This document shows positions 41,155 through 43,446 of a stretch of DNA of 64,000 nucleotides, piece by piece. Numbering within the stretch: position 1 is the first letter of the stretch; each line of letters opens with the position of its first letter. The notes under the pieces were generated by a model. The model worked only from the letters and a program-made list of their open reading frames with translations. It searched no databases and had not been told where the DNA came from. This stretch comes from Anaerolineae bacterium. GTDB lineage: Bacteria; Chloroflexota; Anaerolineae; S140-20. Location of the stretch: positions 7,702 to 71,701 of the forward strand of contig JALUTT010000120.1 in NCBI GenBank assembly GCA_027021705.1. The letters run 5' to 3'. The position numbers were made by a program, and so were the translations under genes.

Positions 41155-43446
41155 ATGCCTACAGCGCTCATCACCGGCATCACCGGTCAGGATGGCTCCT
41201 ATTTGGCCGAGTTCCTGTTGGAGCGGGGGTACGAAGTCGTCGGGATGGTCCGGCGCACCAGCACCGTCAACTTCGCCCGCATCCACCACATCCAGGATCG
41301 GATCACCCTGGTCTCCGGCGACCTGCTGGACCAGGGTTCCCTGATCACCATCCTGCGGGAGTACCGCCCCCAGGAGGTCTACAACCTGGCTGCTCAGTCC
41401 TTTGTGCCCACCTCCTGGGCGCAACCCGTCTTCACCGGTGAAGTGACCGCTCTGGGCGTCACCCGGATGCTGGAAGCCATCCGCACGGTGGACCCCAGCA
41501 TCCGGTTCTACCAGGCGTCGAGCAGCGTGGCAGGGGATACCCCCGTCCTGGTGCGTCAGGGGAAGGAAGTGCGCCTTATCCCGATCGCGGATTTGATGCC
41601 GGCCGAGGTCAAAGAGGTCAACTGTTCAGTCCCGTTGGAGGGGGTGGAGATCCTGACCGCCGACGAGCAAGGCCGGGTCACTTTCGCTCCGGTGAGCCAC
41701 ATCATCCGTCACCTCAAGGATCGCTTGTATACGGTCCGGTATAAGGGAGGCGGTGTCCTGCGGGTCACCGGTGACCACTCGGTGATCGTCTTCGATGAAA
41801 ACGGACGCTTTGTGGAAAAAGCGGTCGCCGACTTGCGCGTGGGGGATTACCTAATCACGTATAACCGAGCGGACTTCCCGACCCGTTCCAACGGCACCGT
41901 TCCCATTCCCATTGAAGTACGGCCTGAGTATCACTCCAGGACGAAGGCTTACCGGACCGATGTTCCCGTCTCGGCCGATTTGATGAGGTTGTTGGGATAT
42001 TACCTGGCTGAGGGGCACTGTGATCTGGACCCGGAGCGACGGCTGTACCGGATTACCCTGACCTTTCATCTGAACGAGGAGGACAAAGCGGCCGACGTGA
42101 AGGCGATAGTTGGCAAGCTGTTCCCGGACCTGAGCGTTTCCGAGCGGCTTAGGCCGGAAGCAACATCGAGGTCCGTGACGGTAATCGGCAAGGTGATAGC
42201 CAGCTTGTGTTCTCAGTTCGGCTGCACGGCCCGGGAGAAGCACCTTCCCGGTTGGATTTGGAGCCTGGACCGTCGCCTACTGCTGGAGTTCCTGCGGGGG
42301 TACCTGGGGGATGCCCAAATCCGAGATACGGAAATCACCTTCACCACCGCCAGCCCCCGCTTGGCGCAGGAGCTGGTTTACCTGATGCGCAATATCGGCC
42401 TCGGTTGCCGGATCTACCGGCGGGTGAACAAGGCCCATCCCGGTCCGCAGGGTACGGTCATTGCTGAATCCACCTGTTACGATATTAAGGTGAGTACACG
42501 CTATGCAACCCTGCTGGGCGAGGGCAAAGCGCATCAACCCCATTGGCAGCAAACGGCCTTGGAGTGCTTGCCTTCCGCGATTTTCCGCCGTGCGATGGAG
42601 GGCAAGGGGTTCCACCGCATCAAGTATAAGCCCCTGGTTTCCAAGGACAAAGTCCGTCGTGTGGTTGCCGAGGCCGGTATCCGGCTCCCGGCCCCCTTAG
42701 AGGCGCTGCTCGACTCCGGCCTGGGTGTGGCGAAGGTAACAGATATTACCTATGAAGACGGCGCCTTCCTGGTTTACGACGTTGCCGTGCCGGAAGGCCA
42801 GCGTTTCTTTGGGGGGAACATCCCGGTACTGCTACACAACTCGGAGATGTTTGGCAAGGTACGGGAGGTCCCCCAGAACGAAAACACCCCCTTCTACCCC
42901 CGCTCGCCCTACGGCGTCGCCAAGGTGTACGGCCACTGGATCACCGTCAACTACCGGGAATCCTACGGCCTCTTCGCCGTCTCGGGGATCCTCTTCAACC
43001 ACGAGTCGCCCCGCCGGGGGCTGGAGTTCGTCACCCGCAAGGTGACCTACGGCGTGGCCAAGATCAAGCTGGGGCTGGCCAACGAACTGCGCCTGGGCAA
43101 CCTGGAGGCCAAGCGGGACTGGGGCTACGCCGGTGACTACGTGCGGGCGATGTGGTTGATGCTTCAGCAGGAGAAGCCGGAGGACTACGTCGTCGGCACC
43201 GGCGAGACCCACTCAGTGCGCGAGCTGTGTGAGGTGGCCTTCAGCCACGTGGGGCTGGACTGGCGGGACTACGTGGTGCAGGACCCCCGCTTTATGCGGC
43301 CGGCCGAGGTGGACCTGCTGGTCGCCGACCCCCGCAAGGCCCGCCGGGTGCTGGGCTGGGAGCCCCAGGTCAGCTTCGAGGAGCTGATCCAGATGATGGT
43401 GGACGCCGACCTGGCGCTGCTGCGAGAGGAACACGGGTTGGAATAG
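41155..43446 (+). CDS. gmd: GDP-mannose 4,6-dehydratase interrupted by an in-frame intein
   Basis: N-extein [34 protein letters not shown]...RFYQASS. C-extein [60 protein letters not shown]. Together these reconstitute the Gmd catalytic block. Confidence 0.85.
41524..42840 (+). mobile_element. Full-length intein (439 codons) with a LAGLIDADG homing-endonuclease domain inside gmd
   Basis: Block [11 protein letters not shown] (Ser1). Block [20 protein letters not shown] motifs [12 protein letters not shown] and [11 protein letters not shown]. Blocks [25 protein letters not shown] followed by the +1 Ser. Confidence 0.85.

What the first reader, a model, noticed from the sequence alone, without database searches (positions are those of the whole stretch)
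41524..42840. Canonical LAGLIDADG intein inserted exactly in the catalytic Ser/Thr-x-Glu motif of GDP-mannose 4,6-dehydratase
The Gmd reading frame is split as ...RFYQASS | [10 protein letters not shown]...[439 codons]...NIPVLLHN | SEMFGK.... In E. coli Gmd the equivalent ASTSE block holds catalytic Thr133 and Glu135, so the intein sits between the catalytic Ser/Thr and Ser-Glu. All splicing blocks are present: A with Ser1, B with TGDH, two LAGLIDADG motifs, F/G ending HN, and a +1 Ser. The element is therefore probably active in both splicing and homing. I do not recall Gmd as a classic intein host, so this may be an unreported insertion site.
Basis: partly seen in the sequence, partly recalled or inferred. 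Interest (0 to 1): 0.75.

Follow-up and report, generated by a model that had tools for sequence, protein, structure and literature searches.

The report
Homing-endonuclease intein inside Gmd active site
The GDP-mannose 4,6-dehydratase gene of this Chloroflexota-like genome is interrupted, between two catalytic residues, by an intact 439-residue self-splicing intein that carries a LAGLIDADG homing endonuclease; it is a real mobile element of a well-known kind, sitting in a host enzyme for which I found no published intein.

Summary
ORF 41155..43446(+) encodes 763 aa. Residues 124-562 (41524..42840) are an in-frame insertion, and removing it restores a contiguous 324-aa Gmd (TIGR01472 457 bits, cut-off 415).

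The insert is an intein:
- It matches Pfam Intein_splicing (9e-15) and LAGLIDADG_3 (7e-8).
- Its AlphaFold model matches the TliVMA, PI-PkoII, PI-PfuI and PI-SceI inteins (Foldseek E down to 4e-24).
- It has Ser1, TGDH (block B), Asp in block F, terminal His-Asn and Ser+1.
- It has two LAGLIDADG helices with acidic residues E163 and D263.

It lies between Ser123, the SDR catalytic Ser/Thr, and Ser124-Glu125, where Glu125 is the catalytic Glu.

At least 23 protein clusters carry allelic inteins, almost all labelled Chloroflexota. The 120 closest Gmd proteins (84-91% identical) are all intein-free with contiguous FYQASSSE[ML]FG.

Three results indicate recent or ongoing homing:
- Intein and extein similarities are incongruent.
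- The intein is less diverged than its host gene in the closest pair (dS 0.48 vs 0.75).
- The endonuclease domain is under purifying selection (dN/dS about 0.1).

Related inteins occupy the same catalytic site in RmlB and RmlD. One relative's Gmd has a second intein.

Verdict: a new member of a known kind, of modest interest. No publication on it was found.

The parts
41155..43446 (+). gmd precursor ORF (763 aa, about 85.9 kDa): N-extein + intein + C-extein
   Evidence: TIGR01472 434.7 bits in two stretches
41155..41523 (+). N-extein, Gmd residues 1-123. It has the Rossmann GITGQDG motif and ends in ...RFYQASS. Ser123 is the SDR catalytic Ser/Thr.
   Evidence: Ser123 aligns with the Thr of ASTSE in 1rpn
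41524..42840 (+). Intein, 439 aa, about 49.0 kDa: HINT splicing domain split by a LAGLIDADG endonuclease domain
   Evidence: Pfam, PDB sequence hits, AF2 pLDDT 80.8, Foldseek 7qss E 4.3e-24 with TM 0.71
41524..41553 (+). Block A ([10 protein letters not shown]) with the Ser1 nucleophile
   Evidence: S1, V2, G4 and T6 are invariant in 16 homologues
41758..41790 (+). Block B ([11 protein letters not shown]); T82-x-x-H85 lies at 41767..41778
   Evidence: T82, G83 and H85 invariant
41911..42717 (+). Endonuclease and DNA-binding region, approximately intein residues 130-398. The boundaries are approximate and taken from the model's secondary structure.
   Evidence: I-DmoI TM(target) about 0.69; PI-PkoII aligned over query residues 144-294
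41980..42021 (+). LAGLIDADG motif 1 ([14 protein letters not shown]); acidic residue E163
   Evidence: E163 conserved in at least 90% of the alignment
42277..42321 (+). LAGLIDADG motif 2 ([15 protein letters not shown]); acidic residue D263; non-canonical GDA ending
   Evidence: Asp in 14 of 16 sequences, Glu in one, Asn in one
42766..42840 (+). Blocks F and G ([15 protein letters not shown] / [10 protein letters not shown]): block F Asp419, His438, Asn439
   Evidence: V417, Y418, D419 and N439 invariant, H438 in at least 90%
42841..43446 (+). C-extein, Gmd residues 124-324, plus stop codon. It starts with Ser+1 then Glu125 (catalytic Glu) and contains the Y147-x3-K151 and NHESPRRG motifs.
40191..41153 (+). 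Context: upstream extended-SDR gene (sugar-nucleotide reductase/epimerase-like, possibly Rmd/Fcl-type), ending 1 nt before the gmd start
   Evidence: the same gene order occurs in L002, L003, L005 and L011
43460..44881 (+). Context: phosphohexomutase (phosphomannomutase/GlmM-like) gene downstream

Best explanation
This is a class-1, full-length ('bifunctional') intein that interrupts the gmd gene.

Splicing (inferred). The 85.9-kDa precursor is translated as one chain and cannot be an active dehydratase, because 439 residues separate the catalytic Ser123 from Ser124-Glu125. The HINT domain then splices itself out through four steps:
1. An N-O acyl shift at Ser1.
2. Trans-esterification to Ser+1.
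3. Cyclisation of Asn439, assisted by His438 and by block B Thr82/His85 and block F Asp419.
4. An O-N shift.
This yields a 36.9-kDa Gmd with the contiguous motif ASSSE, plus a free 49-kDa intein.

Homing (inferred). The intein's double-motif LAGLIDADG endonuclease (E163, D263) is expected to cut the conserved DNA that encodes ...FYQASSSEMFG... in intein-free gmd alleles. Repair from the intein-plus allele would then copy the element in.

What is shown: the architecture, the motifs, the fold, the exact insertion point, the sporadic distribution, the incongruent intein/extein histories and the purifying selection. What is inferred: splicing chemistry and DNA cleavage.
For: - Exact in-frame insertion that restores Gmd when removed.
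- Intein and LAGLIDADG profile hits.
- PDB sequence hits to PI-PkoII and to the TFIIB, VMA, PolII and RadA inteins.
- AF2 model matching the TliVMA, PI-PkoII, PI-PfuI and PI-SceI inteins and I-DmoI.
- S1, T82, H85, D419 and N439 are invariant, and H438 and E163 at least 90% conserved, in 16 homologues 36-90% identical.
- 22 full-length or partial Gmd proteins carry the allelic intein at the same site, and 18 of 22 inteins are exactly 439 aa.
- The 120 best extein homologues (84-91% identical) are all 322-343 aa, and 118 of them have contiguous FYQASSSE[ML]FG.
- Empty sites occur in the same neighbourhood: upstream SDR gene, gmd, downstream phosphohexomutase gene.
- Window vs L001: endonuclease-domain dN/dS 0.096 and N-splicing-domain dN/dS 0.059.
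- Window vs L001: intein dS 0.48 against extein dS 0.75, with only 0.55% of bootstraps reversing the order.
- Identity incongruence: the P0006 extein is 58-60% but its intein 70-77% identical to the window group; P0001 vs L001 inteins are 98.4% against exteins 86.4%; P0007, P0013, P0014 and P0018 exteins are 84-85% identical to the window's but their inteins only 56-65%.
- Lower GC3 in the intein.
Against: - No experiment supports it; neither splicing nor cleavage can be tested here.
- The second LAGLIDADG motif ends GDA rather than GDG and aligns with a one-residue gap to PI-PkoII.
- Some family members have clearly decayed endonucleases: P0020/P0021 read LTKG and LSNTQ and have a 17-aa deletion, and P0005 has a 7-aa deletion after motif 2. 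Decay therefore does occur in this lineage.
- NCBIfam intein_Cterm is only marginal (15.7 bits, cut-off 15.6).
- dS is near saturation for all but the closest pair.
Confidence: 0.85

Rival explanations
1. The intein still splices, but its endonuclease is already inactive. The element is then a vertically inherited passenger late in the homing cycle, no longer mobile in this genome.
For: Motif 2 is non-canonical (GDA, one residue shorter than in PI-PkoII). Relatives with degenerate or partly deleted endonuclease domains exist (P0020, P0021, P0005). The gene neighbourhood is conserved among intein-plus loci L002, L003, L005 and L011, which is compatible with vertical descent.
Against: The GDA form of motif 2 is shared by nearly all family members, including distant ones (P0022), and by the RFC relative P0024. 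It is therefore a lineage trait, not decay. E163 and D263 are intact. Endonuclease-domain dN/dS is 0.096. The intein is younger than the extein in the closest pair, and intein and extein identities are widely incongruent.
Confidence: 0.22
2. The intein has been co-opted as a post-translational switch. Conditional splicing (for example by temperature or stress) would gate Gmd activity and hence synthesis of GDP-fucose/GDP-rhamnose-type envelope sugars.
For: The insertion separates catalytic residues, so activity depends strictly on splicing. Such regulatory roles have been proposed for inteins in general (Discussion of PMC4760082).
Against: Nothing specific points to it. Ser1 and Ser+1 give no redox handle. 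The intein is absent from the 120 closest Gmd proteins. Its history looks like that of a selfish mobile element.
Confidence: 0.05
3. The insertion does not splice, so gmd is inactivated (a pseudogene-like state), or it is an assembly chimera.
For: None beyond the lack of experimental data.
Against: The ORF is intact over 763 codons. Exteins are under purifying selection (dN/dS 0.13-0.15) and keep the Rossmann motif, Ser/Glu and YxxxK. All splicing residues are present. The same architecture recurs in more than 20 independent assemblies from different sources.
Confidence: 0.02

Closest known systems
Archaeal full-length LAGLIDADG inteins with solved structures: PI-PkoII (Tko Pol-2, 2cw7), TliVMA/PhoVMA (7qss/7qst), PI-PfuI (1dq3)
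   Same: The architecture is the same: a HINT domain split by a two-motif LAGLIDADG endonuclease plus accessory DNA-binding parts. They are the best sequence hit (2cw7, E 1.8e-13) and the best fold hits (7qss E 4.3e-24, TM 0.71; 2cw7 E 1.6e-23).
   Different: Sequence identity is only 15-19% in the structural alignments. The hosts differ (DNA polymerase, V-ATPase, RNR) and the organisms are archaea. Here the intein is the Ser1/Ser+1 type, and motif 2 ends GDA.
Inteins of archaeal RFC small subunit at the NA|SDERG site (e.g. P0024; L009, labelled Woesearchaeota)
   Same: These are among the closest non-SDR relatives (25-29% identity over the full length). NCBIfam RFC-with-intein models are the top intein-region hits. 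The end motifs are the same (SV..DTP[IV]LV ... TPVLLHN|S), as is the local extein context Ala-[intein]-Ser-acidic.
   Different: The host protein is unrelated (an AAA+ clamp loader) and belongs to a different domain of life. These inteins form a separate clade in a rough NJ tree.
Allelic or paralogous inteins at the catalytic Ser/Thr of other extended SDRs: dTDP-glucose 4,6-dehydratase RmlB (P0153, P0169, P0179, P0183, P0023) and dTDP-4-dehydrorhamnose reductase RmlD (P0154)
   Same: They are 30-35% identical inteins at the structurally equivalent active-site position (HIS|intein|TDEVYG). They group next to the Gmd inteins in the NJ tree.
   Different: The insertion lies one residue upstream, so the catalytic Thr itself is the +1 nucleophile. 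The enzymes are different. I found no literature on these either.
Mja/haloarchaeal UDP-glucose dehydrogenase inteins (listed as UDP-GlcDH, COG1004, in PMC4760082 Table 2)
   Same: This is a published precedent for an intein in a nucleotide-sugar-metabolising enzyme.
   Different: The enzyme fold is unrelated and the hosts are archaeal. No sequence relationship was tested here.

Membership tests
Intein (class 1, HINT domain) | In-frame insertion whose removal restores a contiguous, conserved host protein | tested here: met
   The spliced 324-aa product scores 457.1 bits on TIGR01472 in one stretch. 118 of 120 close homologues have contiguous FYQASSSE[ML]FG.
Intein (class 1, HINT domain) | N-terminal nucleophile Cys/Ser (block A) and block B TxxH | tested here: met
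   Ser1 and T82-G-D-H85 are invariant in 16 homologues.
Intein (class 1, HINT domain) | Blocks F/G with a C-terminal (His)-Asn, followed by Cys/Ser/Thr at +1 | tested here: met
   VYDV...VLLHN|S; D419 and N439 are invariant and H438 is at least 90% conserved.
Intein (class 1, HINT domain) | HINT fold | tested here: met
   Pfam PF14890 E 9.1e-15. The AF2 model matches full-length inteins and mini-inteins (5o9i, 2lqm, 7oec).
Intein (class 1, HINT domain) | Actual protein splicing (precursor converted to ligated exteins plus free intein) | not testable with these tools
   Requires expression followed by SDS-PAGE and mass spectrometry.
LAGLIDADG homing endonuclease (monomeric, two-motif) | Two LAGLIDADG helices, each ending in an acidic residue | tested here: met
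   LLGYYLAEG (E163) and FLRGYLGDA (D263). D263 aligns with the GDG Asp of PI-PkoII. The ending of motif 2 is non-canonical.
LAGLIDADG homing endonuclease (monomeric, two-motif) | Pseudo-dimeric alpha-beta-beta-alpha-beta-beta-alpha fold | tested here: met
   Pfam PF14528 E 6.9e-8. Foldseek matches I-DmoI and I-Tsp061I with TM(target) 0.62-0.70.
LAGLIDADG homing endonuclease (monomeric, two-motif) | Site-specific cleavage of the intein-free allele | not testable with these tools
   Candidate targets are available from L010, L012, L013 and L014.
LAGLIDADG homing endonuclease (monomeric, two-motif) | Population signature of mobility: sporadic distribution and element/host incongruence | tested here: met
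GDP-mannose 4,6-dehydratase (TIGR01472, extended SDR) | Score above the equivalog cut-off, with the Rossmann GxxGxxG motif, catalytic Ser/Thr, Glu and YxxxK | tested here: met
   457.1 bits against a cut-off of 415. E 1.7e-134 to 1rpn with ASSSE aligned to ASTSE. GITGQDG at residue 8 and Y147-x3-K151. Enzyme activity was not tested.

The most novel reading that the evidence does not exclude
The window's element would belong to a so-far undescribed intein lineage that has colonised the catalytic Ser/Thr position of at least three paralogous extended-SDR sugar-nucleotide enzymes (Gmd, RmlB, RmlD). The lineage is related to inteins of RFC, secretion-ATPase-like, AAA+-like and primase-like proteins. 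The RFC examples carry archaeal (DPANN) labels; the other hosts were assigned only from junction motifs and have no taxon labels. Within Gmd the insertion point can slide by one codon. In the 8 standard intein-plus alleles whose DNA was read, and in the shifted allele L011, the intein directly follows an AGY Ser codon and is followed by TCN. This suggests the position is set by DNA-level target recognition, while the Ser-rich motif tolerates either register. Gmd would also have a second, independent intein site inside NHE|SPRRG.
Probability: 0.45. Interest if true: 0.5.

Novelty: new member of a known kind. Interest (0 to 1): 0.35.

Why it matters
Inteins are well understood, so this does not change any concept. 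It does add a bacterial metabolic enzyme, and a whole enzyme superfamily site, to the list of intein hosts. That list is dominated by replication, repair and ATPase proteins (PMC4760082).

The insertion is unusual in lying directly between catalytic residues. [quoted passage not shown]

There are also practical points:
- Automated annotation calls these 760-aa proteins plain Gmd.
- The family offers a naturally cysteine-free splice junction (Ser1/Ser+1), probably from thermophile-like Chloroflexota, which could interest protein engineers.
- The set of intein-plus alleles, empty alleles, decayed alleles and register-shifted alleles is a compact natural dataset for studying the homing cycle.

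Tried and rejected
- Literature: intein combined with GDP-mannose, dTDP-glucose, NAD-dependent epimerase, or dehydratase found nothing on Gmd or SDR inteins. The only GDP-mannose mention in PMC4760082 is the UDP-glucose/GDP-mannose dehydrogenase COG. Its supplementary tables are not held, and King et al. 2009 (PMC4381037) is not held.
- An exact-protein look-up for the window's precursor found nothing on record.
- A viral-contig scan with the intein alignment found no relative, so there is no evidence for a phage vector.
- An HMM built from the intein alignment and run against all six-frame ORFs of the window found no second intein.
- Rfam over the whole window found only tRNA-Leu, so there is no riboswitch upstream of ahcY or gmd.
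- I considered that LAGLIDADG motif 2 lacked its catalytic Asp. I rejected this because the PI-PkoII alignment places D263 on the GDG Asp, and the GDA form is shared across the family.
- I considered that L001's 'Micrarchaeota' label showed an archaeal host. This is doubtful: the 5.2-kb contig is 85% nt-identical to the window over gmd and has the same upstream SDR gene as the Chloroflexota loci. It is probably mis-binned.
- dN/dS for the more distant pairs is unusable because dS is saturated.
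Full report
**1. Observation**

The window has one uninterrupted ORF at 41155..43446 (+), 763 aa.

- **Coordinates.** The string [10 protein letters not shown]...NIPVLLHN occupies exactly 41524..42840 (439 codons). It is preceded by ...IRFYQASS and followed by SEMFGKV....
- **Host gene.** Joining the flanks gives a 324-aa protein. It scores 457.1 bits in a single stretch on the NCBIfam equivalog TIGR01472 (gmd, cut-off 415). The uninterrupted ORF scores 434.7 bits split into two stretches.
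- **Composition.** The insert has GC 0.597 and GC3 0.73. The exteins have GC 0.64/0.66 and GC3 0.87/0.94.

**2. What the insert is**

- **Profile hits.** Pfam gives Intein_splicing (E 9.1e-15) and LAGLIDADG_3 (E 6.9e-8). NCBIfam gives intein_Nterm above its cut-off and intein_Cterm just above its cut-off. It also matches the intein-bearing models of archaeal RFC, RNA polymerase A'', PolII and V-ATPase.
- **Solved structures, by sequence.** The best match is PI-PkoII (2cw7, E 1.8e-13), followed by TFIIB, VMA, PolII and RadA inteins.
- **Predicted fold.** An AlphaFold2 model built on 16 homologues (pLDDT 80.8, pTM 0.77) matches the TliVMA intein (7qss, E 4.3e-24, TM 0.71), PI-PkoII, PI-PfuI and PI-SceI. 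Its central part matches I-DmoI-type LAGLIDADG enzymes.
- **Splicing residues.** Ser1; block B T82-G-D-H85; block F V-Y-D419; block G H438-N439; Ser+1. Across 16 homologues 36-90% identical, S1, T82, H85, D419 and N439 are invariant, and H438 is at least 90% conserved.
- **Endonuclease motifs.** LLGYYLAEG (E163) and FLRGYLGDA (D263). In the PI-PkoII alignment D263 falls on the Asp of GDG, with a one-residue gap before it. The GDA ending is shared by almost the whole family and by an RFC intein relative. It is therefore a lineage trait, not decay.

**3. Where it sits in the enzyme**

The spliced protein aligns to P. aeruginosa GMD (1rpn, E 1.7e-134), with ASSSE over ASTSE.

- Ser123 corresponds to the catalytic Thr. 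This is Thr126 in the published P. aeruginosa numbering and Thr133 in E. coli. That numbering comes from my knowledge of Webb et al. 2004 and Somoza et al. 2000. The chain index is 138, consistent with a 12-residue tag.
- Glu125 corresponds to the catalytic Glu. The human equivalent Glu157, together with Tyr179, is the pair whose (de)protonation is modelled along the reaction pathway (PMC8640046). The same T-D-E triplet binds the hexose 4- and 6-hydroxyls in RmlB (PMC9415975).
- Y147-x3-K151 and GITGQDG are present.

The intein therefore separates the catalytic Ser from Ser-Glu, and the precursor cannot be active. [quoted passage not shown]

**4. Relatives and distribution**

- **Intein-plus alleles.** A search with the intein alone found 29 proteins. 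P0001-P0022, P0025 and P0026 are Gmd proteins or fragments with the allelic intein (36-90% identity). The source labels are Ktedonobacteraceae, Ardenticatenales and 'Chloroflexi bacterium'. JGI names some of them 'GDP-D-mannose dehydratase/intein/homing endonuclease'. Eighteen of 22 inteins are exactly 439 aa.
- **Genome representatives.** Eight gmd loci were found (L001-L008), plus L009, which is a Woesearchaeota RFC intein. Seven of the eight are labelled Chloroflexota (Anaerolineae, Thermoflexales, Ardenticatenaceae, Chloroflexaceae). The eighth, L001, is a 5.2-kb contig binned as 'Micrarchaeota'. It is 85% nt-identical to the window over gmd and has the same upstream SDR gene, so it is probably mis-binned.
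- **Gene order.** ahcY - SDR - gmd::intein - phosphohexomutase recurs in L002 and L003, and in L011 with a metK gene between ahcY and the SDR gene. L005 shows the ahcY - SDR - gmd part; its contig ends inside gmd.
- **Intein-free alleles.** The 120 best hits to the spliced Gmd (84-91% identical, mostly Anaerolineae MAGs) are all 322-343 aa. Of these, 118 show contiguous FYQASSSE[ML]FG. Three of the four read at DNA level (L012-L014) have the upstream SDR gene, gmd and the downstream phosphohexomutase gene, with an extra ATPase gene upstream of gmd. L010 has a different downstream neighbourhood.

The element is therefore rare and sporadic.

**5. Evidence for mobility and function**

- **Closest pair, window vs L001.** The intein is less diverged than the host gene: dS 0.48 against 0.75 and dN 0.044 against 0.100. 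Only 0.55% of 2000 bootstraps give intein dS at or above extein dS.
- **Selection.** dN/dS is 0.096 in the endonuclease region and 0.059 in the N-terminal splicing region.
- **Incongruence over 276 pairs.** The P0006 extein is 58-60% identical to the window group, but its intein is 70-77% identical. P0001 and L001 have inteins 98.4% identical and exteins 86.4% identical. P0007, P0013, P0014 and P0018 have exteins 84-85% identical to the window's, but inteins only 56-65% identical.
- **Decayed members.** P0020 and P0021 read LTKG and LSNTQ and have a 17-aa deletion. P0005 has a 7-aa deletion.

Together these fit the classical homing cycle: invasion, spread, decay. The window's copy is in the intact phase.

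**6. Wider family**

An exhaustive search of 1.84 billion cluster representatives found 1862 relatives with E below 1e-3. Extein junction motifs and NCBIfam scans identify the hosts of the Ser1 '...DTP[IV]L[IV] ... P[IV]LLHN' clade:

- more divergent Gmd proteins;
- dTDP-glucose 4,6-dehydratase (HIS|intein|TDEVYG) and dTDP-4-dehydrorhamnose reductase;
- RFC (NA|intein|SDERG);
- proteins whose junction motifs look like secretion/FlaI-type ATPases, AAA+ proteins and primases (assigned by motif only).

In a rough NJ tree without support values, inteins cluster by host, and the RmlB/RmlD inteins sit next to the Gmd inteins. The catalytic Ser/Thr site of extended SDRs thus looks like a recurrent intein site. 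I found no paper describing it.

**7. Junction detail**

| Allele type | Sequence at the site | Source |
|---|---|---|
| Standard intein-plus (8 alleles read) | GCN TCN AGY \| AGY GTN ... CAY AAY \| TCN GAR | |
| Empty (L010, L012, L014) | GCC AGT TCS TCG GAR | |
| Empty (L013) | GCG TCC AGC AGC GAG | |
| Shifted intein-plus (L011, protein P0008; P0009 and P0025 look the same at protein level) | GCA AGC \| AGC GTG ... CAT AAC \| TCT TCA GAA | |

In the shifted allele the intein sits one codon upstream, so the catalytic Ser becomes the +1 nucleophile. It still directly follows an AGY codon.

This hints that the DNA sequence sets the insertion register and that the Ser run tolerates both registers. 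However, the shifted case rests on one allele read at DNA level and the empty sites on four. It remains an unexplained lead.

**8. Verdict**

In kind it is fully conventional. What is new is the host and the site: Gmd, and more broadly the extended-SDR catalytic motif, which I could not find in the literature. Public databases already hold such sequences, and one pipeline annotates them as intein-containing.

- Novelty: new member of a known kind.
- Interest: 0.35.
- Not shown here: splicing, cleavage, and the identity of the source organism. The organism is inferred to be a GC-rich Chloroflexota, probably Anaerolineae-like, from the nearest homologues.

Noticed in passing
L004 5509..9024 (WFWG01000298.1, Ardenticatenaceae MAG): The gmd of this relative carries two insertions: the same site-a intein as the window, plus a second 346-aa insertion inside the conserved NHE|SPRRG motif (CVTAETPVIV...CHIHN|SPRRG). 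The second has a LAGLIDADG_3 hit (E 1e-9) and intein-like termini, so Gmd appears to have a second intein site. P0184 and P0189 (about 1060-1080 aa) also look like two-intein Gmd proteins. The window has NHESPRRG contiguous.
   Followed up: partly
L011 3001..5286 (protein P0008; also P0009 and P0025): The intein register is shifted by one codon (QAS|S...HN|SSEMFG instead of QASS|S...HN|SEMFG). At DNA level the intein still directly follows an AGY Ser codon, as in the 8 standard intein-plus alleles read. Empty alleles read AGT TCS TCG or TCC AGC AGC.
   Followed up: partly
P0153, P0169, P0179, P0183, P0023 (RmlB-like) and P0154 (RmlD-like): Related inteins (about 30-35% identical) sit at the equivalent catalytic position of dTDP-glucose 4,6-dehydratase (HIS|intein|TDEVYG) and dTDP-4-dehydrorhamnose reductase. 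The extended-SDR active-site motif is therefore a recurrent intein site across paralogues.
   Followed up: partly
L001 (QMVG01000032.1, labelled Candidatus Micrarchaeota archaeon B47_G15): This 5.2-kb contig holds the closest intein (91% aa). It is 85% nt-identical to the window over gmd and shares the upstream SDR gene with Chloroflexota loci, so the archaeal bin label is probably a binning error. An 817-aa repeat-rich secreted-looking protein lies between the SDR gene and gmd at 354..2807.
   Followed up: partly
window 44922..46115 (+): A 397-aa AAA-type ATPase lies directly downstream of the phosphohexomutase gene, with only a weak NCBIfam hit to the MADS3 anti-phage ATPase (E 1.3e-7, far below cut-off). 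In the intein-free relatives L012-L014 an AAA_15/AAA_21 ATPase gene lies between the SDR gene and gmd. This may be a small mobile or defence module that moves around this locus.
   Followed up: no
window 38245..39972 (+): The listed ORF for adenosylhomocysteinase (ahcY, TIGR00936 686 bits) has a long Pro/Gly/Arg-rich N-terminal extension from a TTG start, about 140 aa, which is probably not translated. The real start is likely near 38665 ([10 protein letters not shown]). No Rfam family, including the SAH riboswitch, reaches gathering score in the upstream region.
   Followed up: partly
window 24672..24756 (-): A single tRNA-Leu (anticodon TAG) is the only RNA gene detected in the 64-kb window.
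   Followed up: no
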